Of a stretch of DNA of 25,734 nucleotides, positions 2 to 16,451 are shown piece by piece. The stretch is from Gammaproteobacteria bacterium (GTDB lineage: Bacteria; Pseudomonadota; Gammaproteobacteria; QNFN01). The stretch lies in assembly GCA_036525695.1 (NCBI GenBank), contig DATCZX010000288.1:1-25734 (forward strand), written 5' to 3'. The number at the start of each line of letters is the position of its first letter. Within the stretch, counting starts at the first letter, position 1. Under the pieces are notes generated by a model. That model saw nothing but the letters and a program-made list of their open reading frames with translations. It was not told the origin of the DNA and did not search any database. A program made the position numbers and the translations under genes.

Positions 2-328
2 GTAGTGGCCCTTGAGCTTGAGGATCGGCCGAGCGATCAGCGTCGCCAGGACCCAGGTGACGACCAGCGCCAGCCCCATCGCCAGCCACGCGCTCCAGCC
101 GAAGCGCGTGGTCAGGATCGCCGATGCGTAGGCGCCGATACCGAAGAACGCAGCATGGCCGAGCGAGATCTGCCCGGCGAAGCCCATGAACATGTTCAGG
201 CTCACCGCCAGCATCACGTGCAGGCCGACGGTGACCCCGACGACGGTGACGAAGTAGTTGTCGCGGAACACGAACGGCAGCAGCGCCACCGCCAGCGCGA
301 ACGCGAAGAAGCCGCCCAGCCGCTTCAT
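2..328 (-). CDS. livM: Branched-chain amino acid-type ABC transporter permease (LivM-like), 5' part only; runs off the window start
   Basis: Not in the ORF track. The ATG (CAT at 326-328) overlaps the livH stop (ATGA). Manual translation MKRLGGFFAFALAVALLPFVFRDNYFV...SLNMFMGFAGQISLGHAAFFGIGAY... contains the LivM-family GQISLGHAAFFGIGAY motif. Confidence 0.9.
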   Translation of the reverse strand, partial: MKRLGGFFAFALAVALLPFVFRDNYFVTVVGVTVGLHVMLAVSLNMFMGFAGQISLGHAAFFGIGAYASAILTTRFGWSAWLAMGLALVVTWVLATLIARPILKLKGHY

Positions 329-1200
329 ACGCGGTCCACCGCGCGCTTGCCGAACAGCCCGCTGGGCCGGAAGAACAGCACCAGCAGGATCACCAGGAAG
401 GCCAGCGCGTCCTTGTAGCCGGACGAGATCAGCCCGGCGCCGAGCGACTCGAGCACGCCGAGCAGCAGGCCGCCGGCGACCGCGCCCATCGAGCTGCCCA
501 TGCCGCCGAGGATCGCCGCCGAGAAGCCCTTGAGCCCGAGCATGATGCCGGCGTCGTAGGAGGTGAAGGCGATCGGCGCGATCAGGATCCCGGCGACCGC
601 GCCGAGGAACGCCGACAGCCCGTAGCTGAACAGCATCATCAGGCGCACGTTGATCCCCATCAGCTGGGCGGCGACGCGGTTGCTCGCGCACGCCAGCACC
701 GCCTTGCCCATCAGCGTGCGGTCGAAGAACCAGCGCACCGCCAGCACCAGCGCCGCGGTCAGGCCCATCACCCAGAGGTTCTGCGGCAGCACCGTGGCGG
801 TGCCGAGGTGCAGCGGCGTCTCGCCGGAGAAGTGCGGCAGCGAGTGGAAATCCTTGCCCCACAGCAGCAGCGCGGCGCCGCGCAGGAAGATCGCCGCGCC
901 GATGGTGATGATGATGGTCGCGACCACCGAAGCCCCGCGCGCCGGCTCGATCGCGAACTTCTGCAGCACCAGCCCGACGCAGGTCACCGCCAGCACCGCG
1001 CCGACGATCGCCAGCGGGTAGGGCAGGCCGCTGGCGAGCAGCGCCACGGTGCTCATCGCGCCGAGCATCACGAACTCGCCCTGGGCGAAGTTCACCACGT
1101 CGGACGCGTTGTAGATGATCGCGAAGCCGAGGCCGACCAGCGCGTAGGTGGCGCCGACGGTGATGCCGGTGATCAGGAACTGCAGGATCAGGTCGAACAT
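325..1200 (-). CDS. livH: Branched-chain amino acid-type ABC transporter permease (LivH-like)
   Basis: 291-aa hydrophobic protein with YALVGLGFAIIY, NFAQGEF and AAILGGMGS motifs typical of LivH. It lies between the binding protein and livM. Confidence 0.92.
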   Translation of the reverse strand: MFDLILQFLITGITVGATYALVGLGFAIIYNASDVVNFAQGEFVMLGAMSTVALLASGLPYPLAIVGAVLAVTCVGLVLQKFAIEPARGASVVATIIITIGAAIFLRGAALLLWGKDFHSLPHFSGETPLHLGTATVLPQNLWVMGLTAALVLAVRWFFDRTLMGKAVLACASNRVAAQLMGINVRLMMLFSYGLSAFLGAVAGILIAPIAFTSYDAGIMLGLKGFSAAILGGMGSSMGAVAGGLLLGVLESLGAGLISSGYKDALAFLVILLVLFFRPSGLFGKRAVDRV

Positions 1201-1282
1201 GGGGTTTCCCGGTCAAGCCGGGTCCCGCCGCCGCCGTGGGACGGCGACGGGACGTAGCCAGCGTGGGAAGGGAGCGGGCCGG

Positions 1283-2431
1283 TTACTCGACCAGCTTCCA
1301 GTCGCCGTTACGGATCTCGAGCAGCTTGAACGCGTCGAGGCCAAGACCCATGTGGTCGGTCGCGCTCATGTTGAACACGCCGCCGGTGCCGCTGAAGCCG
1401 CGGGTCTTCTCGATCTCGGCGCGCACCTTCTCCTTGTCGGTGCTGCCGGCGCGCTTGATCGCCTCGACCGCCAGGAACAGGCCGTCGTAGGCGTGGCCGC
1501 CGAAGGTCGAGACGGGACCGTGCTTGGCCTCGTACTTCTTCTTGTAGTCGAGCTCGACCGCCTTCTGCGGGTCGTTGTCGGGCAGCTGCTCGGCGACCAG
1601 CAGGGCCGCGGCCGGCAGGCGCACGCCCTCGGCGGCGTCGCCGGAGAGCTCGATGTACTTCTTCGAGGCGACGCCGTGCGACTGGTACAGCGGCGCGCTG
1701 ATGCCGAGCTGGCGCACGTTCTTGGTGACGATCGCCGGGCCCGAGCCGAAGCCGCAGTTGAGCAGCGCCTGCGGGTTGGCCGCGCGGATCTTGGACAGCT
1801 GCGTGGTCATGTCGGTGTCCTTGGCGCCGTAGGTCTCGTCGGCCACGATGGTGATCCCGCTCTCGGCCGCCAGGCCGACCGCCTGGCCACGGCACGACTT
1901 GTCGAAACCGCCGTCGCCACTGATCAGGCCGATCTTGGTCAGGCCGCGCTTCTGCATGTCGCCGTAGACCTTCTGCACCGCCATGCGGTCGGTGTGCGGG
2001 GTCTTGAACACCCACTTCTTGACCGGGTCGATGATCTGGATCGCGCCGGCCAGCGAGATGAACGGCACCCCGGCCGACTCGACCTCGGGGATCACCGCCA
2101 TGGTGCTGCCGGAGGTGGAGCCGCCGACGATGACGTCGACCTTGTCGCTCTGGATCAGCCGCTTGACGAAGTTGACCGACTCCTTGGCGTTGCCGCCGTC
2201 GTCGTAGTGGACCAGCTCGACCTGGCGCCCGAGCAGGCCGCCGGCGGCGTTGATCTCCTCGACGTACATCTGCAGCGTCTTCAGCTCGGGATCGCCGAGG
2301 AACGACGCCGGTCCGGTCACGGCCAAAAAGGTACCGATCTTGATCGGCTCGGCGGCCAGCGCCTGGCCGACGCCGAGCGCGACGCCCATCACCCCGGCTG
2401 CGAGGCCGGAAATCCAGCGGTGCTTGTGCAT
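1283..2431 (-). CDS. ABC transporter periplasmic binding protein (LivK/type I PBP family), probably for an aromatic acid
   Basis: 382 aa with a signal peptide (MHKHRW...QALA-AEPIKIG) and LivK-family motifs (TGPASFLG, YDDG, VDVIVGG). AGGAGG RBS upstream. The substrate is inferred only from context. Confidence 0.88.
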   Translation of the reverse strand: MHKHRWISGLAAGVMGVALGVGQALAAEPIKIGTFLAVTGPASFLGDPELKTLQMYVEEINAAGGLLGRQVELVHYDDGGNAKESVNFVKRLIQSDKVDVIVGGSTSGSTMAVIPEVESAGVPFISLAGAIQIIDPVKKWVFKTPHTDRMAVQKVYGDMQKRGLTKIGLISGDGGFDKSCRGQAVGLAAESGITIVADETYGAKDTDMTTQLSKIRAANPQALLNCGFGSGPAIVTKNVRQLGISAPLYQSHGVASKKYIELSGDAAEGVRLPAAALLVAEQLPDNDPQKAVELDYKKKYEAKHGPVSTFGGHAYDGLFLAVEAIKRAGSTDKEKVRAEIEKTRGFSGTGGVFNMSATDHMGLGLDAFKLLEIRNGDWKLVE

Positions 2432-2701: not shown

Positions 2702-3106
2702 ATGCAACAGAGTCTGCAGCCGGGCCTGACCAAGACCGCCCGGATCACCATCGACACCGCCCGCACGATCGACTTCATGGGCGACGAGGGCCGCGTCTAC
2801 GCCACCCCCGAGCTGGTCCGCGACATCGAGATGACCTGCCGCGACCTGCTGCTCGAGCACCTCGACGCCGGCGAGGACTCGGTCGGCACGCGCGTCGAGG
2901 TGGACCACATCGGCGCCACGCTGCTCGGCATGTGGGTCGAGATCACGGTGACCGTCAGCGCGGTCAACGGCCGCGCGGTCAGCTTCGAGATCAGCGCCCG
3001 CGACAACCTCGAGGACGTCGCCCGCGGCAAGCACAACCGCTTCGTCGTCGACGTGGCCAAGACCGCCGAGCGGCTCAAGGGCAAGGCGGCCAAGGCCGGC
3101 CTATGA
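2702..3106 (+). CDS. Hotdog-fold thioesterase, fluoroacetyl-CoA thioesterase (FlK)-like
   Basis: 134 aa. YATP...E (Thr35, Glu43) and VGTRVEVDH (His69) reproduce the spacing of the FlK Thr42/Glu50/His76 triad. GGAGGAG RBS; ATGA overlap with padB. Confidence 0.85.
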   Translation: MQQSLQPGLTKTARITIDTARTIDFMGDEGRVYATPELVRDIEMTCRDLLLEHLDAGEDSVGTRVEVDHIGATLLGMWVEITVTVSAVNGRAVSFEISARDNLEDVARGKHNRFVVDVAKTAERLKGKAAKAGL

Positions 3107-5838
3107 GCGCCCCGGAAGGCGGGACCGTGAAGAAGGTCCCGACCTACTGCTACCAGTGCGTCGCCGGCCCCGACCTGCTGACGGTCAAGGTGGTCGACGG
3201 CGTCGCCACCGAGGTCGAGCCGAACTTCGCCGCGGCCGAGGTCACCCCGTCGGCGGGCAAGGTCTGCGTCAAGGCGTACGGGTTGCTACAGAAGATGTAC
3301 AACCCGAACCGCATCCTGACGCCGATGAAGCGCACCAACCCGAAGAAGGGGGTCGACCAGGACCCGGGCTTCGTGCCGATCTCGTGGGACGAGGCGCTGG
3401 ACACCATCGCCGCGCGGCTGCACGAGGTGCAGGCCAAGGGGCCGAACGACAGCTCCGGCTACCCGCGCATCGCCGCCAGCTTCGGCGGCGGCGGCACGCC
3501 GACCTATTACATGGGCACGCTGCCGGCGTTCCTCGCCTCGATCGGGCCGATCGACTTCGGCTTCGGCAGCGGCCAGGGCGTCAAGTGCTACCACTCCGAG
3601 CACCTCTACGGGGAGCTCTGGCACCGCGCCTTCACCGTCGCCCCGGACACCCCGAACACCGAGTTCATCCTCTCGTTCGGCTACAACATCGAGGCCTCGG
3701 GCGGAGTCTGCGGGGTCAAGCGCCACGCCGACGCCCGCGCCCGCGGGGTCAAGCGGGTGCAGATCGAGCCGCACCTGTCGGTCACCGGGGCGTGCTCGGC
3801 CGAGTGGGTGCCGATCCGGCCCAAGACCGACGCCGCGTTCATGTTCGGGCTGATCCACGTGATGCTGCACGAGCAGCGCCAGCGCCTCGACATCCCGTTC
3901 CTCAAGCACCGCACCACCTCGCCCTACCTGGTGGCGCCCAACGGCTTCTTCCTGCGCGATCCGGCGACCCGCAAGCCGCTGCTCTACTGCCTCCAGCGCA
4001 AGCGCGCGGTGCCGTTCGACACCCCCGACACCGACCCGGCGCTCGAGGGCACGTTCAAGGTCTCCGGGATCGAGATCGGCGCCGACGACGACGCCTGGGA
4101 GCACCGCCTGGAGAAGGTCCAGCCGGCGTTCCAGAAGCTGCTCGAGCACACCGCCGAGTACACCCCGCTGTGGGCCGGGCGCATCTGCGACGTGCCGCAC
4201 AAGGTGATCCGCCGCCTGGCGCTCGAGTTCCTCGACCACGCGCGGGTCGGCGAGACGGTCGAGATCGAGGGCCGCACGCTGCCCTACCGCCCGGTCGCCA
4301 TCGCCCTGGGCAAGACGGTCAACAACGGCTGGGGCGGCTTCGACTGCTGCTGGGCGCGCACGCTGATGGCGTGCCTGGTCGGCGCGCTCGAGGTGCCCGG
4401 CGGCACGCTCGGCACCACGGTGCGCCTGAACCGCCCGGCGACCGACCGCGCGCTCAGCGTCAAGGGCCATCCCGACGGGTTCATGGACTACCCGATGAAC
4501 CCGACCGACAAGGCCGGCTGGCTGGCCAAGCCCGACGTGCGCAACGCCAACCGCACGCTGATCCCGCTGGTCGCGAACTCGCCGTGGAGCCAGGCGCTGG
4601 GCCCGACCCACCTGGCCTGGATGCAGCAGCAGAAGGCGCCCGAGCACTGGCCGCAGGCGACCCCGCCGGACATCTGGTTCGTCTACCGCACCAACCCGGC
4701 GATCTCGTTCTGGGACACGCGGCAGATCGAGCAGGTGCTGGCCCGGTTCCCGTTCACCGTCTGCTTCGCGCTGACCCTGGACGAGACCAACCACTTCGCC
4801 GACATCCTGCTGCCGGACCGCACCGACCTCGAGGGGCTGCAGCTGATCCGCGTCGGCGGCACCAAGTTCATCGAGCAGTTCTGGGACTACCAGGGCTTCG
4901 CGCTGCGCCAGCCGGTCGCCGAGGGCCAGGGCGACGCGCGCGACTTCACCTGGATCGCGACCGAGCTGGCGCACCGCAGCGGCGTCCTCGGCAAGTACGT
5001 CAAGGCGGTCAACCGCGGTGCCGCCGGGGTGCCGCTGCAGGGCAAGAACTACGACTTCTCGCTGCCCGAGGAGGAGGCGCCGACGGTCGAGGCGGTGTGG
5101 GACGCGACCTGCCGCGCCGCCAGCGCCGAGATCACCGACGGCGCCGAGACCCAGGGCCTCGACTGGTACCGCGAGCACGGCTTCCGGCTGGCGCCGTTCC
5201 CGCGCGTCAAGTGGTACCTGTACCCGGCGATCGAGGACGCCGGCCTGCGCTTCGAGCTGCCCTACCAGGAGCGGCTGATGCGCATCGGCAAGCAGCTCGG
5301 CCGGCGCCTGCACGAGCACGGCATCAGCTGGTGGGACGAGCAGCTCGAGGAGTACGACCCGCTGCCCGAGTACAAGAACTACCCGGAGCTGTGGGAGAAG
5401 GCGCTGGAGCGCAACTTCAAGGTCGACATCCGCGACTACCCGTTCTGGGCGGTGACCACGCGCAGCATGCAGTACGCCTGGGGCGGCAACGTCGGCATCC
5501 AGCTGATGCGCGAGGTGGCCGAGAACGTGGGCGGTCACGGCGGCGTGGTGCTGAACAGCGGCCGCGCCGCCGAGCTCGGCCTCGCCGACGGCGACCTGGT
5601 CGAGATCCGCTCGCCGCTCAACGTCACCCGCGGCCGCGTGGTCGCCCGCCAGGGCATCCGCCCCGACACCGTGTTGATGGTCGGCCAGTTCGAGCACTGG
5701 GCGACGCCGTTCGCCAAGGACCTGGAGCTGCCCAGCCTGAACAAGCTGGTGCCGATGCTGCTCGACCTGACCGACTCGACCGGCTCCGGCGCCGACCTGA
5801 CCCGGGTCAGCATCAAGCGCGTGGGAGCGAAGCGATGA
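3103..5838 (+). CDS. padB: Molybdopterin (bis-PGD) oxidoreductase catalytic subunit, phenylacetyl-CoA:acceptor oxidoreductase PadB-like
   Basis: 911 aa from the ATG at 3103 (the track's 2539 start is a spurious extension). DMSO-reductase-family features: PTYCYQC...CVK N-terminus, RILTPMKRTNPKKG, ISWDEAL, ADILLPD, C-terminal molydopterin-binding domain. No Tat signal. Clustered with Fe-S and anchor subunits and a phenylacetate-CoA ligase. Confidence 0.82.
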   Translation: MSAPEGGTVKKVPTYCYQCVAGPDLLTVKVVDGVATEVEPNFAAAEVTPSAGKVCVKAYGLLQKMYNPNRILTPMKRTNPKKGVDQDPGFVPISWDEALDTIAARLHEVQAKGPNDSSGYPRIAASFGGGGTPTYYMGTLPAFLASIGPIDFGFGSGQGVKCYHSEHLYGELWHRAFTVAPDTPNTEFILSFGYNIEASGGVCGVKRHADARARGVKRVQIEPHLSVTGACSAEWVPIRPKTDAAFMFGLIHVMLHEQRQRLDIPFLKHRTTSPYLVAPNGFFLRDPATRKPLLYCLQRKRAVPFDTPDTDPALEGTFKVSGIEIGADDDAWEHRLEKVQPAFQKLLEHTAEYTPLWAGRICDVPHKVIRRLALEFLDHARVGETVEIEGRTLPYRPVAIALGKTVNNGWGGFDCCWARTLMACLVGALEVPGGTLGTTVRLNRPATDRALSVKGHPDGFMDYPMNPTDKAGWLAKPDVRNANRTLIPLVANSPWSQALGPTHLAWMQQQKAPEHWPQATPPDIWFVYRTNPAISFWDTRQIEQVLARFPFTVCFALTLDETNHFADILLPDRTDLEGLQLIRVGGTKFIEQFWDYQGFALRQPVAEGQGDARDFTWIATELAHRSGVLGKYVKAVNRGAAGVPLQGKNYDFSLPEEEAPTVEAVWDATCRAASAEITDGAETQGLDWYREHGFRLAPFPRVKWYLYPAIEDAGLRFELPYQERLMRIGKQLGRRLHEHGISWWDEQLEEYDPLPEYKNYPELWEKALERNFKVDIRDYPFWAVTTRSMQYAWGGNVGIQLMREVAENVGGHGGVVLNSGRAAELGLADGDLVEIRSPLNVTRGRVVARQGIRPDTVLMVGQFEHWATPFAKDLELPSLNKLVPMLLDLTDSTGSGADLTRVSIKRVGAKR

Positions 5839-6478
5839 CCCGCTACGTCATGGTCGCCGACCTCGAGCGCTGCGTCGGCTGCCAGACCTGCACCGCGGCG
5901 TGCAAGCACGCCAACGCCACCGCCCCCGGGGTGCAGTGGCGCAAGGTGCTGGACATGGAGGTGGGCAGCTACCCCGACGTGCGCCGCGCCTTCGTCCCGG
6001 TCGGCTGCATGCACTGCGCCGACCCGCCGTGCATGCACGTCTGCCCGTCGACCGCCACCGGCCAGCGCGCCGACGGCATCGTCACCATCGACTACGACCT
6101 GTGCATCGGCTGCACCTACTGCGCGGTCGCCTGCCCGTACCAGGCGCGCTACATGGTCGAGGAACCGAACCAGGCCTACCGCAAGGGGCGCATGCGCCAC
6201 GAGGAGCGGCGCGACGAGCCCGGCCGGCTCGGCGTGGCGCAGAAGTGCAGCTTCTGCGTCGACCGCATCGACTACGGCAAGGCCCACGGCCTGACCCCCG
6301 GGGTCGATCCCGAGGCCACGCCCGCCTGCGTCAACGCCTGCATCGCCAGCGCGCTGCACTTCGGCGACATCGAGGATGCGCAGAGCAACGTCAGCCAGCT
6401 GCTGGCGACGCACAAGCACTTCCGCATGCACGAGGAGCTCGGCACCGAGCCGGGCTTCTTCTACCTCTGGGAGGACGC

Positions 6479-6482
<4 letters not shown>
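5835..6482 (+). CDS. padC: 4Fe-4S electron-transfer subunit (DmsB/NrfC type), PadC-like
   Basis: 215 aa from the ATG at 5835 (ATGA overlap). Four Cys groups: CVGCQTCTAAC, CMHCADPPCMHVCP, CIGCTYCAVACP, CSFC...CVNAC. Confidence 0.85.
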
Positions 6483-7351
<869 letters not shown>

Positions 7352-7480
7352 GCCGCGCCGGGGAGCGGGACCGGTTTCCCGGTCGTTCGAGGAAAACAGC
7401 GGTGGCCGCCTGGACGGAAGGAGCGCAACGACCTGCCGGCACCCGGCCGGCGCCGTTGCCTAGTTCCCGGTTCGACAGGC

Positions 7481-7489
7481 TGCTAGGGT
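7481..7489 (+). promoter_or_regulatory. Candidate extended -10 promoter for the CoA ligase gene
   Basis: TG-C-TAGGGT in the 210-bp padD-ligase gap. AGGAGG RBS just before the ATG at 7562. Confidence 0.35.
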
Positions 7490-7561
7490 TGAACAACCAC
7501 GCGCCGGGCGCCGAGGGGGCGCGACCGGACGCAGAAAAATGAGACCAGCAGGAGGTTCCCG

Positions 7562-8890
7562 ATGAGCCAGTCCGTGAAGTCCGGCAAGGCGCCGTTCCAT
7601 TTCCATCCCGAGGTCGAGGCGCTGCCACGCAAGAAACTCGCGAAGCTGCAGCTCGAGCGGCTGCAGAAGACCCTCGCCCACGCCTACGCCAACGTGGACC
7701 ATTTCCGCGCCCGGTTCGATGCCGCCGGGGTCAAGCCCAAGCACCTGAAGTCGCTCGAGGACCTCGCCAGGTTCCCGTTCACGGTCAAGAACGACCTGCG
7801 CGACCACTACCCGTTCGGCATGTTCGCCGTGCCGATGGACAAGGTGGTGCGCGTGCACGCCTCGTCGGGCACCACCGGCAAGCCGACCGTGGTCGGCTAC
7901 ACGCGCGGTGACATCCGCCGCTGGGGCGACCTGATGGCGCGCTCGATCGCCAGCGCCGGCGGGCGCCCCGGCGACATCCTGCACAACGCCTACGGCTACG
8001 GCCTGTTCACCGGCGGGCTCGGCGCCCACTACGGCGGCGAGCGCCTCGGCTGCAGCGTGACCCCGATGTCGGGCGGCAACACCGAGAAGCAGATCGTGCT
8101 GCTCAAGGACTTCGGCGCCAACGTGCTCTGCGCGACCCCCTCCTACGCGCTGAACATCGCCGAGGTGGCCGAGGCCGAGGGCGTCGACCTGGCCGGCGGC
8201 CCGTTGCGCGTCGGCGTGTTCGGCGCCGAGCCGTGGTCGGAGGCGATGCGCGCCGAGCTCGACCAGCGCCTCGGCCTGCGCGCCGTCGACATCTACGGGC
8301 TTTCCGAGATCATGGGCCCGGGCGTCGCCGCCGAGTGCTGCGAGGAGCGCGCCGGCCTGCACGGCTGGGAGGACCACTTCCTGTTCGAGATCATCGACCC
8401 GGAGAGCGGCGCGCCGAAGGCGCTCGGCGAGTCCGGCGAGCTGGTCATCACCACGCTGACCAAGCGGGCGCTGCCGATGATCCGCTACCGCACCCGCGAC
8501 ATCACCCGCCTGAGCCGCGAACCGTGCAGCTGCGGCCGCACCCACGTGCGCATCCTGCGCGTGACCGGGCGCAACGACGACATGCTGATCATCCGCGGGG
8601 TCAACGTCTACCCGTCGCAGATCGAGGCGGTGATGGTCGGCATCGCCGGAATCACCCCGCACTACCAGCTGGTGGTGCGCCGCAAGGGCTCGATGGATAC
8701 GCTCGGGGCCGAGATCGAGGCTGCGCCCGAGACCGCGGCCGGCGACTACCCGCGGCTCGCCGGCGAGATCCGCCACCACATCAAGTCGATGGTCGGCGTC
8801 ACCTGCGACGTGCAGATCAAGGCCCCGGGCGAGGTGCCGCGCTCGCAGGGCAAGGCGGTGCGCGTCCGCGACGAGCGGCCGAAGGGCTGA
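7562..8890 (+). CDS. paaK: Phenylacetate-CoA ligase (PaaK/PadJ)
   Basis: 442 aa with the PaaK motifs RVHASSGTTGKPTVVGYT, NAYGYGLFTGGLGAHYG, DIYGLSE, PMIRYRTRD, GRNDDMLIIRGVNVYPSQIE and PRSQGKAVRV. Confidence 0.95.
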   Translation: MSQSVKSGKAPFHFHPEVEALPRKKLAKLQLERLQKTLAHAYANVDHFRARFDAAGVKPKHLKSLEDLARFPFTVKNDLRDHYPFGMFAVPMDKVVRVHASSGTTGKPTVVGYTRGDIRRWGDLMARSIASAGGRPGDILHNAYGYGLFTGGLGAHYGGERLGCSVTPMSGGNTEKQIVLLKDFGANVLCATPSYALNIAEVAEAEGVDLAGGPLRVGVFGAEPWSEAMRAELDQRLGLRAVDIYGLSEIMGPGVAAECCEERAGLHGWEDHFLFEIIDPESGAPKALGESGELVITTLTKRALPMIRYRTRDITRLSREPCSCGRTHVRILRVTGRNDDMLIIRGVNVYPSQIEAVMVGIAGITPHYQLVVRRKGSMDTLGAEIEAAPETAAGDYPRLAGEIRHHIKSMVGVTCDVQIKAPGEVPRSQGKAVRVRDERPKG

Positions 8891-8899
8891 CGATTCCTC

Positions 8900-8927
8900 G
8901 CGCCGGCCCGCCAGCGCGGGCCGGCGC
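8900..8927. other. GC-rich hairpin just after the ligase stop codon
   Basis: GCGCCGGCCCGC-cagc-GCGGGCCGGCGC: 12-bp perfect stem with no U-tract. May be a pause or 3'-end stabiliser. Confidence 0.4.
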
Positions 8928-9076
8928 ACTGCTGCCACCCGCGGCTGCCGGCCGCGCGCCATCGGGCACGACCGGTGCGTTAGAACCGGTGCACGGCACC
9001 CTCCAATCCCGCTACCGCCGCACCGCCCTCGCGCGGCCGGCGCGTCCCCCGGCGACCCGCATCCCTCTGCTGGCAC

Positions 9077-9107
9077 AAAAAAACGGGGCGGCCCGTGGGC
9101 CGCCCCG
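9077..9107 (-). terminator. Rho-independent terminator of the ompA-like gene
   Basis: Minus strand CGGGGCGGCCC-AC-GGGCCGCCCCG followed by T7, 25 nt downstream of the stop at 9133. Confidence 0.88.
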
Positions 9108-9132
9108 CTAGTCAGCTCCGGACCGGCCGGGC

Positions 9133-10314
9133 TTACTTGGTCTCGATGATCACCGCGATCACGCGACGGTTGCGCTGGCGCCCGTCCTTGCTCGCGTTGT
9201 CGGCGATCGGCCGGGTCTCGCCGTAGCCGACCGTCTTCAGGCGGTTGGCATCGATCTTCTTCTTGTTGACCAGGTAGTCGCGCACCGAGTCGGCGCGGCG
9301 CTCGGAGAGCTTCTGGTTGTAGCTGTCCGGGCCGGTGCTGTCGGTGTGGCCCTCGATGGTCGCAACCGAGCCCGGGTGCTGCTCCATGAACGCCGCGGCG
9401 TCACCGAGCAGGGCGTGGTACTGCGGGCGGATGTCGGACTTGTCGAAGTCGAACTCGATCTTCAGCTCCATCCGCGTCGGCGCCATCATCACCGGGCAGC
9501 CCTGCGCGTCGACCTTGGTGCCGAGCGGGGTGTTCGGGCACTTGTCGAGGTAGTCGGGCACCCCGTCACCGTCGCTGTCGAGCGGGCAACCGCGGCTGTC
9601 CACCGGCGCACCCTTCGGGGTGTTCGGGCAGTGGTCGAAGCTGTCCGGCACGCCGTCGCCGTCGCTGTCGAGCGGGCAACCGTCGGCACCGACCGCGACC
9701 CCCTTCGGGGTGTTCGGGCAGCGGTCCTTGTCGTCGGTGACGCCGTCGCCGTCGCTGTCGAGCGGGGCGGCGGCCATCGCCTTCGGCACGCCGAACAGCA
9801 GCTGCAGGCCGGCCTGCAGCTGGTAGTCGTCGTCGTTATCGTCCCCCATGTCCAGCAGGTAACGGCCATCGAGGCGCAGGGCAACCTGTGGCGTGAGGAA
9901 GTACTTCAGGCCTGCGGCGAGGTTGATCAGCGAATCGCCGTCATCGTCGCCGCCCTGGGGGTCCATGTTGCGGTAGCCGATACCGCCGCCGAGGTAGGGG
10001 ACCAGTGCGTCGCCCTTGTCGAAGTGGTAGAGCCCGCTGATGGTGGCGATGTTCGTGTCGACCTCACCAGCGCCGCCGCGCAGGTCGACCTTCGAGTAAC
10101 TGAGCAGCGCCTCTACGCTCCAGTTGCGGCTGAAGTTGTGCCCGATGCCGAGGCTGTAGACGGTGTCGTCGTCTTCCACCGCCACGTTGTCGTACCAGTG
10201 CAGGCCGATCATCGGGCTCACCGTCCAGGCGCCCTCCCGCTCGACCGCCGAGGCGGCCCCGGCCGTCAATGCAAGCGCTAATGCAGCAGCAGCGCCAATC
10301 GCCTTTTTCATCAT
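9133..10314 (-). CDS. OmpA/OprF-family outer membrane protein with thrombospondin-type-3-like repeats
   Basis: 393 aa: signal peptide, N-terminal beta-barrel-like region (VPYLGGGIG, GLKYFL), three DSDGDGV..CP repeats, and a C-terminal peptidoglycan-binding domain (IEGHTDS, YNQKLSERRA, GYGETRPIA, NRRV). Confidence 0.93.
   Translation of the reverse strand: MMKKAIGAAAALALALTAGAASAVEREGAWTVSPMIGLHWYDNVAVEDDDTVYSLGIGHNFSRNWSVEALLSYSKVDLRGGAGEVDTNIATISGLYHFDKGDALVPYLGGGIGYRNMDPQGGDDDGDSLINLAAGLKYFLTPQVALRLDGRYLLDMGDDNDDDYQLQAGLQLLFGVPKAMAAAPLDSDGDGVTDDKDRCPNTPKGVAVGADGCPLDSDGDGVPDSFDHCPNTPKGAPVDSRGCPLDSDGDGVPDYLDKCPNTPLGTKVDAQGCPVMMAPTRMELKIEFDFDKSDIRPQYHALLGDAAAFMEQHPGSVATIEGHTDSTGPDSYNQKLSERRADSVRDYLVNKKKIDANRLKTVGYGETRPIADNASKDGRQRNRRVIAVIIETK
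9493..9762 (-). repeat. Three tandem 90-bp (30-aa) coding repeats, LDSDGDGVxDxxDxCPNTPxGxxVxxxGCP
   Basis: gtcgctgtcgagcggg recurs at 9571, 9661 and 9751, an exact 90-bp period. Confidence 0.93.
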
Positions 10315-13989: not shown

Positions 13990-14001
13990 GCGGAGGCCGC
14001 G

Positions 14002-14997
14002 ATGCACCTGGTCTGTCCCGCCGGCAACCTGCCCGCGCTGAAGGGCGCGGTCGACCACGGCGCCGACGCCGTCTACATGGGCTTCCGCGACGACACCAAC
14101 GCGCGCTCGTTCCCCGGCCTGAACTTCAGCGAGGGGAATGCCCGCGACGCCATCCGCTACGCCCACGCCAGGGGCGCGCAGGTGTTCGTCGCGATCAACA
14201 CCTACCCGCAGCCGGACGGCTGGTCGCGCTGGGAGGCGGCCGTCGACCACGCCGCCGAGCTCGGCGTCGACGCGCTGATCATCGCCGACATGGCGGTGCT
14301 CGACTACGCGCTGCGCACGCACCCCGGGCTGCCGCGCCACCTCTCGGTGCAGGGCTCGGCGACCAACTACGAGGCGATCCGCTTCTACCACGAGCAGTTC
14401 GGCATCCGCCGCGTGGTGCTGCCGCGCGTGCTGTCGCTGCAGCAGGTCGAGCAGGTGATCGCGCAGGTGCCGGTCGAGGTCGAGGTGTTCGGCTTCGGCG
14501 GGTTGTGCGTGATGGTCGAGGGGCGCTGCACGCTCTCCTCGTACGCCACCGGGCAGTCGCCCAACGGCTGCGGCGTCTGCTCGCCGGCCAGCGCGGTGCG
14601 CTGGCAGGAGACCGCGGCGGGGCTCGAGTCGCGCCTCGGCGGGCTGCTGATCGACCGCTACGGGCCGGGCGAGCACGCCGGCTACCCGACCGTCTGCAAG
14701 GGCCGTTACCGGGTCGGCGAGTCGACCTACTACGCGATCGAGGAGCCGAGCAGCCTGAACACGCTGGAGCTGCTGCCCGAGCTGCAGGCGATCGGGGTCA
14801 AGGCGGTGAAGATCGAGGGGCGCCAGCGCAGCCCGGCCTACGTCAAGCAGGTCACCCGGGTGTGGCGCGAGGCGCTCGACGCCGTCGCCCGCGACCCCGC
14901 GGCGTTCGTGCCGCGGCCCGAGTGGCTGGCCGCGCTCGGCAAGGTCAGCGAAGGGGCGCAGACCACCCTCGGCGCCTACCACCGGCCGTGGCAGTGA
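14002..14997 (+). CDS. ubiU: O2-independent ubiquinone biosynthesis protein UbiU (U32 family)
   Basis: 331 aa with LVCPAGNLPAL, NAR.FPGLNF, four conserved Cys (GLCVMVEGRC, GVCSP, PTVCKGR), KIEGRQRSPAYV and the C-terminal QTTLGAYHRPWQ. Confidence 0.95.
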   Translation: MHLVCPAGNLPALKGAVDHGADAVYMGFRDDTNARSFPGLNFSEGNARDAIRYAHARGAQVFVAINTYPQPDGWSRWEAAVDHAAELGVDALIIADMAVLDYALRTHPGLPRHLSVQGSATNYEAIRFYHEQFGIRRVVLPRVLSLQQVEQVIAQVPVEVEVFGFGGLCVMVEGRCTLSSYATGQSPNGCGVCSPASAVRWQETAAGLESRLGGLLIDRYGPGEHAGYPTVCKGRYRVGESTYYAIEEPSSLNTLELLPELQAIGVKAVKIEGRQRSPAYVKQVTRVWREALDAVARDPAAFVPRPEWLAALGKVSEGAQTTLGAYHRPWQ

Positions 14998-15899
14998 GCG
15001 GCCCGCGCCTGAGCCTCGGCCCGGTCCAGTACCACTGGCCGCGGGCGCGCCTCGAGGCGTTCTACGCCGAGGTCGCCGACGGCCCCGCCGCGGTGGTCTA
15101 CCTCGGCGAGACGGTCTGCTCGAAGCGCCGCGAGCTGCGCCTCGACGACTGGCTGGCGCTGGCCACGCAGCTGCAGCAGGCCGGCAAGGAGGTGGTGCTG
15201 AGCAGCCTGGCGCTGCTCGAGGCCGAGTCCGAGCTCAAGCGGCTGCGCCGGCTGTGCAGCAACGGCCGCTTCCGCGTCGAGGCCAACGACATCGGCGCGG
15301 TGCGCCTGCTGGCCGCCGAGGGGGTGCCGTTCGTCACCGGGCCGGCGGTCAACATCTACAACCAGCACACCCTCGCGCTGCTGGCGCGGCAGGGACTCTG
15401 CCGCTGGGTGATGCCGCTGGAGCTGTCGCGCGCGACGCTGGCCGGGATCCTCGCCGAGGCGCCGCCCGCGATCGAGACCGAGGTCACCGTCTACGGCCGC
15501 ATCCCGCTGGCGTGGTCGGCGCGCTGCTTCACCGCCCGGCACCACAACCTGCCCAAGGACGACTGCCGCGAGGTGTGCCGCGACTACCCCGACGGCCTGC
15601 TGGTCGAGACCCGCGAGGCGCAGCCGTTCCTGGCCTTCAACGGCATCCAGACGCAGTCCGCGCAGACCTACTCGCTGGTCGAGGAGGTCGAGGACCTGGC
15701 CGCGCTCGGCGTCGACCTGCTGCGGGTCTCGCCGCAGGCCGCGGACACCGCCACGGTGCTGGCCTGCTTCGCCGCGGTGCTGGACGGCGGGCGTGCCGCG
15801 GACGACGCCGCAGCGGAGCTGGCGGGGCTGATGCCGGTCGGCGCGTGCCGCGGTTACTGGTACGGCGAGGCCGGGATCGCCACGCCGGCCCGGGCCTGA
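14994..15899 (+). CDS. ubiV: O2-independent ubiquinone biosynthesis protein UbiV (U32 family)
   Basis: 301 aa from the GTG overlapping the ubiU stop (GTGA). LSLGPVQYHW, YLGETVCSKRR, SARCFTARH..LPKDDC...C, NGIQTQS, CRGYW motifs. Confidence 0.93.
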   Translation: MSGPRLSLGPVQYHWPRARLEAFYAEVADGPAAVVYLGETVCSKRRELRLDDWLALATQLQQAGKEVVLSSLALLEAESELKRLRRLCSNGRFRVEANDIGAVRLLAAEGVPFVTGPAVNIYNQHTLALLARQGLCRWVMPLELSRATLAGILAEAPPAIETEVTVYGRIPLAWSARCFTARHHNLPKDDCREVCRDYPDGLLVETREAQPFLAFNGIQTQSAQTYSLVEEVEDLAALGVDLLRVSPQAADTATVLACFAAVLDGGRAADDAAAELAGLMPVGACRGYWYGEAGIATPARA

Positions 15900-15932
15900 G
15901 CCGTCGACTCGAGCGGCGCGCCGCGGAGCGTG

Positions 15933-16451
15933 CTACTCCGACCCCGCGCTGGCGGCGCCGCAGACCCGGCGGTAGGCCGCCAGTGCGCCGTCGAGCCAGC
16001 GCGCCGCCGCCGGCGGCAGCTCCTCGACACCGAACTCCAGGCTGTCGAGCAGGTTCTTCAGCTGCAGCCCCAGCGCGGTGTCGCCCTCGATGCGCAGGCG
16101 GCGCTGGAAGAACAGCGTGTCGGGGTCCTCGCGCCGGGTCGCCAGCAGCAGGAAGTCGTACAGGTCGCCGCTCATGCTGACGTCCGCCGGGCGCTCGCTC
16201 TGGCCGGCGTAGAAGCCGCCGACGCCGAGGAACAGCCGGTACTCGACCCCGGTGTCGTCGACGCGGATGGCCACGGTGCGGCCGAACAGGAAATCGAGTT
16301 CCCCGTCGCGCCGCGGCGCGGCGAGGACCCGGTCCAGCACGCCGGCGAGCACGGTCGAGTGCAGCACCGCGGGGACCAGGCGGAACGGCAGCCGCAGCGG
16401 CGCCGGCAGGCGCACGGCAGGTTCGTGGGCTGGCGAGGCAGGCTGGCTCAT
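15933..16451 (-). CDS. ubiT: SCP2-domain ubiquinone accessory factor UbiT
   Basis: 172 aa from the ATG at 16451. Contains the UbiT motif EDPDTLFFQRRL.IEGDT.LGL..KN and GELDFL. Adjacent to ubiUV. Confidence 0.9.
   Translation of the reverse strand: MSQPASPAHEPAVRLPAPLRLPFRLVPAVLHSTVLAGVLDRVLAAPRRDGELDFLFGRTVAIRVDDTGVEYRLFLGVGGFYAGQSERPADVSMSGDLYDFLLLATRREDPDTLFFQRRLRIEGDTALGLQLKNLLDSLEFGVEELPPAAARWLDGALAAYRRVCGAASAGSE

What the first reader, a model, noticed from the sequence alone, without database searches (positions are those of the whole stretch)
2702..8890. pad cluster lacking the phenylglyoxylate oxidoreductase genes (padEFGHI)
Seen: padD ends at 7351 and the ligase starts at 7562. The 210-bp gap has no credible ORF but has its own extended -10 candidate and RBS. 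Known: in Aromatoleum-type clusters padEFGHI lie between padD and padJ and convert phenylglyoxylate to benzoyl-CoA. Inference: the module may have moved elsewhere in the genome. Alternatively the organism may dispose of phenylglyoxylate by another route (for example MdlC-type decarboxylation), excrete it, or use this enzyme on a different aryl-acetyl-CoA. Any of the latter would be a variant pathway.
Basis: partly seen in the sequence, partly recalled or inferred. Interest (0 to 1): 0.62.

Follow-up and report, generated by a model that had tools for sequence, protein, structure and literature searches.

The report
Phenylacetate oxidation genes lacking last enzyme
This bacterium has the genes that turn phenylacetate into phenylglyoxylate without oxygen but lacks the usual enzyme for the next step; this shortened layout is common in uncultured bacteria, and a different NAD(P)-linked 2-oxoacid enzyme encoded elsewhere in the genome is the best candidate to fill the gap.

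Summary
The window (a whole 25.7-kb contig of a 72% GC gammaproteobacterial MAG) carries thioesterase-padB-padC-padD, a 210-nt spacer, then a phenylacetate-CoA ligase. No padEFGHI is present.

Relocation is not supported. No PadG/H/I orthologue was found in this MAG (92.5% complete) or in six genomes of the same family.

The layout is not a local oddity. Of 80 PadB-bearing species genomes, 57 lack PadG. Where PadG is present and the locus is long enough (19 loci), padEFGHI directly follows padD. On the PadB tree, PadG-positive and PadG-negative loci are interleaved.

An MdlC-type route is not supported either: the only ThDP enzymes of that fold found are acetolactate synthase and a phosphonopyruvate decarboxylase. 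The MAG does have boxB, boxC and boxD, so benzoyl-CoA is still the likely product.

The best candidate for the missing step is a four-gene NAD(P)-linked 2-oxoacid oxidoreductase on contig C15. It is the closest PadG/PadI paralogue in the MAG. Its orthologues sit next to padBCD in three other gene orders. They occur in 12 of 57 PadG-negative genomes, 0 of 23 PadG-positive genomes and none of about 290 PadB-negative class-sample genomes.

This assignment is inferred, not shown. Verdict: a new variant of a known pathway, of moderate interest.

The parts
2..1212 (-). Two branched-chain-type ABC permease genes. One is about 325-1200. A second runs off the left contig end at about 2-232.
   Evidence: BPD_transp_2 hits. 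The same transporter genes lie upstream of padB in 26 of 57 PadG-negative loci but only 1 of 23 PadG-positive loci.
1283..2431 (-). Periplasmic solute-binding protein (Peripla_BP_6) of the ABC importer. It is transcribed divergently from the pad genes and is the likely aromatic-acid uptake component.
   Evidence: Pfam Peripla_BP_6, 209 bits. Its cluster (c8) is found in 20 PadG-negative and 0 PadG-positive loci. A promoter-like site lies on the minus strand at 2606-2577.
2702..3106 (+). FlK-type hotdog thioesterase, the candidate phenylglyoxylyl-CoA hydrolase.
   Evidence: PF22636, 106.7 bits. A homologue precedes padB in most of the 80 loci. Its stop overlaps the padB start.
3103..5838 (+). 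PadB, the molybdopterin catalytic subunit of phenylacetyl-CoA:acceptor oxidoreductase.
   Evidence: Molybdopterin and Molydop_binding domains. It is 72-74% identical to Sedimenticola PadB. JGI names its relatives phenylacetyl-CoA:acceptor oxidoreductase. It has no RR signal and has conserved Cys16, Cys19 and Cys55.
5835..6482 (+). PadC, a four-cluster iron-sulfur subunit.
   Evidence: Fer4_11 and DmsB/DsrO-type hits. It has 16 Cys including three full CxxCxxCxxxC motifs. It is 66-90% identical to PadC in the other loci.
6479..7351 (+). PadD, the DmsC-like membrane anchor and presumed quinone site.
   Evidence: PF04976 DmsC. It has 6-8 hydrophobic segments. It is 41-71% identical to PadD across loci.
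7352..7561 (+). Non-coding spacer with a hairpin after padD and the ligase ribosome-binding site. It holds no remnant of padEFGHI.
7562..8890 (+). Phenylacetate-CoA ligase (PaaK/PadJ type).
   Evidence: TIGR02155, 612.7 bits (cut-off 646.3). It is 70% identical to the Sedimenticola ligase that follows padI. It is by far the strongest of three matches to this model in the MAG; the others score 246 and 152 bits.
9082..9109 (-). A 12-bp GC-rich hairpin with a T-run, lying between the ligase and the convergent OmpA-family gene. It marks the end of the pad unit.

Best explanation
The window encodes a complete, self-contained module for oxygen-independent alpha-oxidation of phenylacetate.

Proposed steps, in order:
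- An ABC importer brings the acid in.
- The PaaK-type ligase makes phenylacetyl-CoA.
- The cytoplasm-facing, membrane-anchored Mo/Fe-S enzyme PadBCD oxidises the alpha-carbon and passes electrons to quinone.
- The hotdog thioesterase releases phenylglyoxylate.

The canonical next enzyme, PadEFGHI, is genuinely absent from this lineage. This is not an assembly displacement. The shortened layout is the commoner one among PadB-bearing Proteobacteria.

The inferred part is the fate of phenylglyoxylate. I propose it is still converted to benzoyl-CoA by a different 2-oxoacid oxidoreductase. The best candidate is the four-gene enzyme on contig C15: a gamma subunit, a GltD-like FAD/NAD(P) protein fused to the delta ferredoxin, an alpha subunit and a beta subunit. 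It lies next to indolepyruvate-type oxidoreductase genes that would supply phenylacetyl-CoA from phenylpyruvate. Benzoyl-CoA would then enter the oxygen-dependent box pathway (boxB, boxC and boxD on contig C449).

Shown: gene identities, genome-wide absence of padEFGHI, distribution and synteny. Inferred: the substrate of the C15 enzyme and the flux into the box pathway.
For: Module identity.

Absence of padEFGHI:
- PadI model best hit 227 bits and PadG model best hit 307 bits, both against a cut-off of 700.
- tblastn with Sedimenticola PadE-I finds only 26-42% paralogues.
- Six same-family genomes (70-100% complete) all have PadB at 86-95% identity but no PadG.

Generality:
- True PadG is present in 21 of 80 PadB genomes, plus 2 partial copies at contig ends.
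- The remaining 57 peak at about 300 bits, so the scores are clearly bimodal.
- 23 loci have the ligase directly after padD, as here.
- PadG-positive loci fall in at least 5 clades interleaved with PadG-negative ones.

Benzoyl-CoA is still the likely goal:
- Class I benzoyl-CoA reductase genes lie within 10 kb of 12 PadG-negative pad modules.
- The MAG has BoxB (905 bits), BoxC (965 bits) and BoxD (735 bits).
- BoxB is present in 4 of 6 family relatives.
- No PaaA was found.

C15 enzyme as candidate:
- It gives the best PadG and PadI model hits in the genome.
- Like PadEFGHI, it carries an NAD(P)/FAD subunit (NF009410, 521 bits).
- Orthologues at 55-64% identity abut padBCD in three gene orders: after the ligase (L026, L087), convergent on padD (L035, L046), and directly upstream on the same strand (L110-L112).
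- The divergent pairing with the IOR-family gene is conserved in relatives.
- Orthologues occur in 12 of 57 PadG-negative genomes, 0 of 23 PadG-positive genomes, and in none of about 290 PadB-negative genomes of an even class sample. The no-overlap hypergeometric P is 0.012, which is overstated because related genomes are not independent.
Against: - 45 of 57 PadG-negative genomes have neither PadG nor the C15-type enzyme, so it cannot be the general substitute.
- The C15-type family is large. It also occurs in ordinary contexts, including one genome with no PadB.
- Pad-linked members are scattered among generic ones on the alpha-subunit tree, so there is no dedicated subclade.
- Its beta subunit scores best to Vor/Por-type models. 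It could be a general or branched-chain 2-oxoacid enzyme, or it could feed the pathway from phenylpyruvate rather than drain it.
- The MAG has several other 2-oxoacid oxidoreductases.
- A benzoate-CoA ligase family gene is present (656 bits), so the box pathway does not depend on phenylglyoxylate.
- The MAG is fragmented (466 contigs, N50 7 kb).
- In the class sample only 3-4 candidates per genome were scored.
Confidence: 0.5

Rival explanations
1. Phenylglyoxylate is converted to benzoyl-CoA, but by a different 2-oxoacid oxidoreductase of the MAG. Candidates are the indolepyruvate-family pair on C15 (about 718 and 496 aa in relatives), a classical IorA-type enzyme (downstream of the C15 beta gene in relatives; another on C439), the second four-subunit enzyme on C11, or the Kor-like enzyme on C146.
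For: IOR-type enzymes take aromatic 2-oxoacids. In 8 PadG-negative loci an IorA-family gene sits directly after padD, the slot padEFGHI occupies elsewhere. In 5 of these the ligase follows it. The MAG has at least five such enzymes. 45 of 57 PadG-negative genomes lack the C15-type enzyme, so something else must serve there.
Against: The same IorA-family gene also follows padI in 5 PadG-positive loci. This fits a feeder role (phenylpyruvate to phenylacetyl-CoA) rather than a replacement role. Kor-like genes are commoner in PadG-positive loci (16 of 23) than in PadG-negative ones (11 of 57). None of these enzymes shows the mutual exclusion with PadG that the C15 type shows.
Confidence: 0.2
2. 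Phenylglyoxylate is not converted to benzoyl-CoA by a CoA-acylating oxidoreductase. Instead it is decarboxylated to benzaldehyde and oxidised to benzoate, transaminated or reduced, or excreted.
For: An AorABC-like tungsten aldehyde oxidoreductase cluster (C173) and a benzoate-CoA ligase family gene (C131) exist. These could process benzaldehyde and benzoate. Many PadG-negative genomes have no identified substitute.
Against: No benzoylformate-decarboxylase-type enzyme was found. The only two TPP_enzyme_N proteins are acetolactate synthase and phosphonopyruvate decarboxylase. Pad modules without padEFGHI sit beside benzoyl-CoA reductase genes in 12 loci. Excretion would waste the ATP spent on CoA activation.
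Confidence: 0.1
3. The enzyme acts on another aryl- or alkyl-acetyl-CoA, so phenylglyoxylate is never formed and no PadEFGHI is needed.
For: Substrate was not tested. The ligase scores just below the PaaK cut-off (612.7 against 646.3). The MAG has a second, deeper-branching PadBCD paralogue, so the family has diversified.
Against: PadB is 72-74% identical and the ligase 70% identical to the Sedimenticola proteins in a canonical padBCD-padEFGHI-ligase cluster. The window PadB nests within the clade that contains those proteins. The divergent paralogue is the C439 copy, not this one.
Confidence: 0.08
4. padEFGHI exists in the organism but lies in the unassembled or unbinned part of the genome, so this is a simple rearrangement.
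For: The MAG is 92.5% complete with N50 about 7 kb. An earlier scan note on another genome (e1-4273144) reported the missing enzyme on another contig.
Against: None of seven genomes of the family reaches the PadG cut-off. In 19 of 19 informative loci padEFGHI is contiguous with padD, and here that position is occupied by the ligase, as in two close relatives.
Confidence: 0.04

Closest known systems
The pad cluster for anaerobic phenylacetate/phenylalanine catabolism (padBCD, padEFGHI, padJ) of Thauera aromatica, Aromatoleum/Azoarcus evansii and Sedimenticola selenatireducens (PMC4453571; PMC5109826, citing Rhee & Fuchs 1999 and Hirsch et al. 1998)
   Same: The PadB, PadC, PadD and ligase genes are orthologous (72-74%, about 73%, 45-48% and 70% identity to Sedimenticola). 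The order thioesterase-padB-padC-padD is the same. The predicted chemistry up to phenylglyoxylate is the same.
   Different: The five padEFGHI genes are absent from the cluster and from the genome. An ABC importer is attached instead. The downstream route in this MAG is the box pathway rather than a benzoyl-CoA reductase.
PadEFGHI, phenylglyoxylate:NAD+ oxidoreductase (CoA-benzoylating)
   Same: The C15 enzyme is also a four-subunit-type 2-oxoacid oxidoreductase with an added FAD/NAD(P) protein. Its alpha subunit is 42% identical to PadG and its beta subunit 36% identical to PadI. These are the closest paralogues in the MAG.
   Different: It scores far below the PadG and PadI cut-offs. Its nucleotide-binding subunit is GltD-like and fused to the delta ferredoxin, not a PadH-type protein. 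Its beta subunit lacks the N-terminal ferredoxin domain of PadI. The family also occurs without any pad genes.
Membrane-bound three-subunit Mo-bisPGD enzymes of the DmsABC/PhsABC type
   Same: They share a catalytic molybdopterin subunit, a four-cluster ferredoxin and a DmsC/NrfD-type anchor.
   Different: PadB has no Tat signal, so it faces the cytoplasm. It oxidises a CoA thioester rather than reducing a respiratory acceptor. All NCBIfam matches to named reductases are far below their cut-offs.

Membership tests
PadBCD phenylacetyl-CoA:acceptor oxidoreductase | The catalytic Mo-bisPGD subunit is orthologous to PadB of canonical pad clusters. | tested here: met
   It is 72-74% identical over the full length to Sedimenticola PadB, which is followed by padEFGHI. 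It nests within the clade containing those proteins.
PadBCD phenylacetyl-CoA:acceptor oxidoreductase | A four-cluster Fe-S subunit and an integral membrane anchor are encoded directly downstream. | tested here: met
   PadC has 16 Cys. PadD is DmsC-like with 6-8 hydrophobic segments. The start and stop codons overlap.
PadBCD phenylacetyl-CoA:acceptor oxidoreductase | Cytoplasmic orientation, shown by the lack of a twin-arginine export signal. | tested here: met
   There is no RR motif in the first 40 residues.
PadBCD phenylacetyl-CoA:acceptor oxidoreductase | It oxidises phenylacetyl-CoA to phenylglyoxylate with a quinone as acceptor. | not testable with these tools
   This needs an enzyme assay.
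Canonical complete pad pathway cluster (padBCD + padEFGHI + padJ) | Presence of the phenylglyoxylate:NAD+ oxidoreductase genes padE-I. | tested here: not met
   The best PadG score is 307 bits and the best PadI score 227 bits, both against a cut-off of 700. PadH has only a 32%-identical AorC-like hit.
Canonical complete pad pathway cluster (padBCD + padEFGHI + padJ) | A phenylacetate-CoA ligase is linked to padBCD. | tested here: met
   The ligase is at 7562-8890 and scores 612.7 bits to TIGR02155.
PadEFGHI (asked of the C15 oxidoreductase) | Alpha and beta subunits score above the equivalog cut-offs NF045764 and NF045766. | tested here: not met
   They score 307 and 228 bits against 700. They form a separate clade from PadG.
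PadEFGHI (asked of the C15 oxidoreductase) | A PadH-type epsilon subunit, and a PadI with an N-terminal ferredoxin domain. | tested here: not met
   The nucleotide-binding subunit is GltD-like (NF009410) and fused to the delta ferredoxin. The beta subunit matches only positions 147-436 of the PadI model.
Box (benzoyl-CoA epoxidase) pathway | BoxB and BoxC score above their cut-offs. | tested here: met
   BoxB scores 905 bits (cut-off 499) and BoxC 965 bits (cut-off 712). A 3,4-dehydroadipyl-CoA semialdehyde dehydrogenase scores 735 bits. All three are on C449.
Box (benzoyl-CoA epoxidase) pathway | The BoxA reductase component. | not tested
   Contig C449 ends 85 bases after boxB. BoxA was not searched for.

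The most novel reading that the evidence does not exclude
Most PadBCD-bearing bacteria run an undescribed version of the anaerobic phenylacetate pathway without PadEFGHI. In about a fifth of them, including this lineage, a GltD-fused NAD(P)-linked 2-oxoacid oxidoreductase has been recruited repeatedly as a new phenylglyoxylate:NAD(P)+ oxidoreductase. Here this couples an oxygen-independent side-chain oxidation to the oxygen-dependent box ring cleavage.
Probability: 0.4. Interest if true: 0.65.

Novelty: new variant of a known kind. Interest (0 to 1): 0.52.

Why it matters
The textbook anaerobic phenylalanine/phenylacetate route rests on a few denitrifiers in which padBCD and padEFGHI travel together. 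In this sample of 80 species-level genomes, the two modules are uncoupled in about 70% of carriers, and those carriers still sit beside benzoyl-CoA pathway genes. Pathway callers that require padEFGHI will therefore under-count this capacity in metagenomes. It also means the enzyme that makes benzoyl-CoA from phenylglyoxylate is unassigned in most carriers. A similar gap was noted for sulfate reducers, which also lack padB (PMC5109826). The C15-type enzyme is a concrete, testable candidate. If confirmed it would be a second, independently recruited arylglyoxylate oxidoreductase.

Tried and rejected
- A tblastx of the window flanks against all loci was swamped by spurious frames in the high-GC DNA. 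It only showed that the upstream minus-strand transporter genes are conserved.
- A first GC3-based gene caller was too strict for low-GC loci and was relaxed. The relaxed caller is still crude because it uses stop-to-stop frames and makes some fusions. Cluster counts are therefore approximate.
- The metagenome scan with the C15 fusion protein returned only six close loci. The other 74 were 31-38% paralogues.
- Contexts of three distant C15-type homologues were generic. This lowered the claim from 'dedicated enzyme' to 'candidate'.
- A conserved pair after padD in PadG-negative Burkholderiales loci was considered as a substitute and rejected. It is a hemerythrin-domain protein plus a polytopic membrane protein with no Pfam match, not an oxidoreductase.
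- Kor-like genes next to pad loci were rejected as the substitute because they are commoner in PadG-positive loci.
- Two papers that mention phenylglyoxylate (Rhodoferax, Bradyrhizobium) gave no experimental lead.
- The accession of the benzoylformate decarboxylase model was not known, so MdlC was tested only through the TPP_enzyme_N domain.
Full report
**What is in the window**

The window is the whole of contig C288 of a fragmented MAG: 2.59 Mb, 466 contigs, N50 about 7 kb, 72% GC, 92.5% complete and 1.7% contaminated. The nearest PadB loci are all labelled uncultured Gammaproteobacteria.

Domain and family searches, plus reading of start codons, give these genes:
- FlK-type thioesterase, 2702-3106.
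- PadB, 3103-5838.
- PadC, 5835-6482.
- PadD, 6479-7351.
- Phenylacetate-CoA ligase, 7562-8890.

The first four are joined by ATGA overlaps. A 210-nt spacer separates padD from the ligase.

PadB has no twin-arginine signal. PadC has 16 cysteines. PadD has 6-8 hydrophobic segments. This fits a cytoplasm-facing, membrane-anchored enzyme that reduces quinone.

Upstream on the other strand lie a Peripla_BP_6 binding protein (1283-2431) and branched-chain-type ABC permeases.

The spacer holds a hairpin and the ligase ribosome-binding site. It has no consensus promoter, no credible ORF and no conservation in close relatives apart from the ribosome-binding site region.

**Is it really PadBCD?**

PadB has thousands of full-length relatives at about 70% identity. 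Many of them are named phenylacetyl-CoA:acceptor oxidoreductase by JGI.

Eighty loci from species-representative genomes were fetched. In Sedimenticola selenatireducens (L018) the genes between padD and the ligase score above the NCBIfam equivalog cut-offs for PadF, PadG, PadH and PadI. PadE was placed by reading the frame. This matches the published cluster (PMC4453571).

The window's PadB, PadC, PadD and ligase are 74%, 73%, 45% and 70% identical to those Sedimenticola proteins. On a PadB tree the window protein nests inside the clade that contains them. I therefore file the enzyme as a PadBCD orthologue. Its substrate remains untested.

**Has padEFGHI moved?**

The evidence says no:
- The best matches in the whole MAG to the PadI and PadG models are 227 and 307 bits, against cut-offs of 700.
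- tblastn with the Sedimenticola PadE-I proteins finds only paralogues at 26-42% identity.
- All six other genomes of the same family carry PadB at 86-95% identity. None has a PadG match above about 300 bits.
- The two close relatives whose contigs extend past padD (L010, L011) show the same padD-ligase junction.

**How general is this?**

Among the 80 PadB genomes, PadG scores above its cut-off in 21. Two more have partial copies at contig ends. In the other 57 the best score is about 300 bits or less.

In all 19 PadG-positive loci long enough to tell, padEFGHI directly follows padD. No genome showed an unlinked padEFGHI.

Other layouts seen after padD:
- 23 loci have the ligase directly after padD, as here.
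- 8 have an indolepyruvate-family oxidoreductase gene in that position.

PadG-positive loci fall into at least five clades interleaved with PadG-negative ones. This means repeated gain or loss on a single orthologous PadB backbone.

PadG-negative loci form a recognisable module type. The ABC importer genes accompany 26 of 57 of them but only 1 of 23 PadG-positive loci. Twelve PadG-negative loci have class I benzoyl-CoA reductase genes (HGD-D and BcrAD families) within 10 kb. The shortened modules therefore still appear to serve the benzoyl-CoA pathway.

**What follows phenylglyoxylate in this MAG?**

Genes found or not found in the MAG:

| Function | Result |
|---|---|
| BoxB, BoxC, BoxD (contig C449) | 905, 965 and 735 bits, all above cut-off |
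| BoxB in family relatives | 4 of 6 |
| HGD-D family (class I benzoyl-CoA reductase) | none |
| PaaA (aerobic phenylacetyl-CoA epoxidase) | none |
| TPP_enzyme_N proteins | two only: acetolactate synthase and phosphonopyruvate decarboxylase |
| Benzoate-CoA ligase family gene | present, 656 bits |
| AorABC-like tungsten aldehyde oxidoreductase cluster | present on C173 |

The TPP_enzyme_N result means an MdlC-type decarboxylation has no gene to rest on.

**The candidate substitute**

Contig C15 encodes a gamma subunit, a GltD-like FAD/NAD(P) protein fused to a delta-type ferredoxin (NF009410, 521 bits), an alpha subunit and a beta subunit. An indolepyruvate-family oxidoreductase gene is transcribed divergently from them. 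A near relative shows the fuller locus: iorB-iorA, then divergently gamma, fusion, alpha, beta and a second IorA-type gene.

The arguments for this enzyme are:
1. It is the closest PadG/PadI paralogue in the genome.
2. Like PadEFGHI, it couples a four-subunit oxidoreductase to a nucleotide-binding flavoprotein.
3. Orthologues at 55-64% identity are physically linked to padBCD in three different gene orders. They follow the ligase in two Rhodospirillales MAGs. They are convergent on padD in two gammaproteobacterial MAGs. They lie directly upstream on the same strand in three lake-metagenome contigs.
4. Orthologues occur in 12 of 57 PadG-negative genomes and 0 of 23 PadG-positive genomes. They occur in none of about 290 PadB-negative genomes of an even sample of the class.

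The arguments against are:
- 45 PadG-negative genomes have neither enzyme.
- The family is large and also sits in ordinary contexts. One such genome has no PadB.
- Pad-linked members are scattered over the family tree.
- The linkage could equally reflect a feeder role, converting phenylpyruvate to phenylacetyl-CoA.

The mutual exclusion with PadG favours substitution. By contrast, the IorA-family gene co-occurs with PadG in five loci, which points to a feeder role for that gene. I put about 0.5 on the C15 enzyme and about 0.2 on another oxidoreductase of the MAG.

**Comparison with what is known**

The held literature describes only the coupled padBCD-padEFGHI-padJ pathway (PMC4453571, PMC5109826). 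It notes that the phenylglyoxylate-to-benzoyl-CoA step is unclear in sulfate reducers, which also lack padB. I found no paper that discusses PadBCD carriers without PadEFGHI.

The same check here was negative.

**Verdict**

This is a real and correctly read cluster. The absence is genuine, lineage-wide and common elsewhere. It is a new variant of a known pathway, with a testable but unproven candidate for the missing step.

Noticed in passing
G000 contig C439 (locus L109), about 2804-9202: The MAG has a second, deeper-branching PadBCD-like set. Its PadB is 54-61% identical to all 78 sampled PadB proteins, and its PadC is 79% identical to the window's. It has no thioesterase or ligase. A PAS hybrid histidine kinase follows it. 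A classical IorA-type oxidoreductase gene faces it divergently. It was not seen in the six family relatives. It may oxidise another arylacetyl-CoA.
   Followed up: partly
G000 contig C173 (locus L091), 4811-8912: An AorABC-like cluster: a ferredoxin-like protein, a tungsten-type aldehyde ferredoxin oxidoreductase, and a PadH-like FAD/NAD oxidoreductase. It fits phenylacetaldehyde (or benzaldehyde) oxidation in anaerobic phenylalanine catabolism.
   Followed up: partly
window about 14000-16450: A U32-peptidase-family gene on the plus strand (domain hit at about 15276-15804), with a possible second ORF upstream of it (untested), and a convergent SCP2-domain gene on the minus strand (about 15933-16400). 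The combination resembles UbiU/UbiV/UbiT of oxygen-independent ubiquinone synthesis. That would suit a quinone-reducing PadBCD. Only the Pfam domains were seen.
   Followed up: no
L047, L049, L053, L058, L059, L068, L082 directly after padD; G000 contigs C377 and C85: In PadG-negative Burkholderiales-type loci a hemerythrin-domain protein and a roughly 450-aa polytopic membrane protein with no Pfam match follow padD. Other compact loci have a hemerythrin and a GNAT protein after the ligase. The MAG has homologues that are split over two contig ends. Their role is unknown; oxygen or NO sensing, or cluster repair, are possibilities.
   Followed up: partly
G000 contig C398 (locus L093): A second aldehyde-oxidoreductase-family gene lies next to moaA and Rnf complex genes (rnfD, rnfB). 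Rnf would link the ferredoxin from the many 2-oxoacid oxidoreductases to NAD.
   Followed up: no
L110-L112, between the C15-type beta gene and padB (about 1.2 kb): In three lake-metagenome contigs the C15-type oxidoreductase genes and padBCD-ligase lie on one strand, separated by about 1.2 kb that holds small unannotated ORFs. The thioesterase lies further upstream on the opposite strand.
   Followed up: no
window 9133-10314 (minus strand): An OmpA-family outer membrane protein with a beta-barrel, thrombospondin type 3 repeats and an OmpA domain. It converges on the ligase and the two are separated by a strong hairpin terminator at 9082-9109.
   Followed up: no
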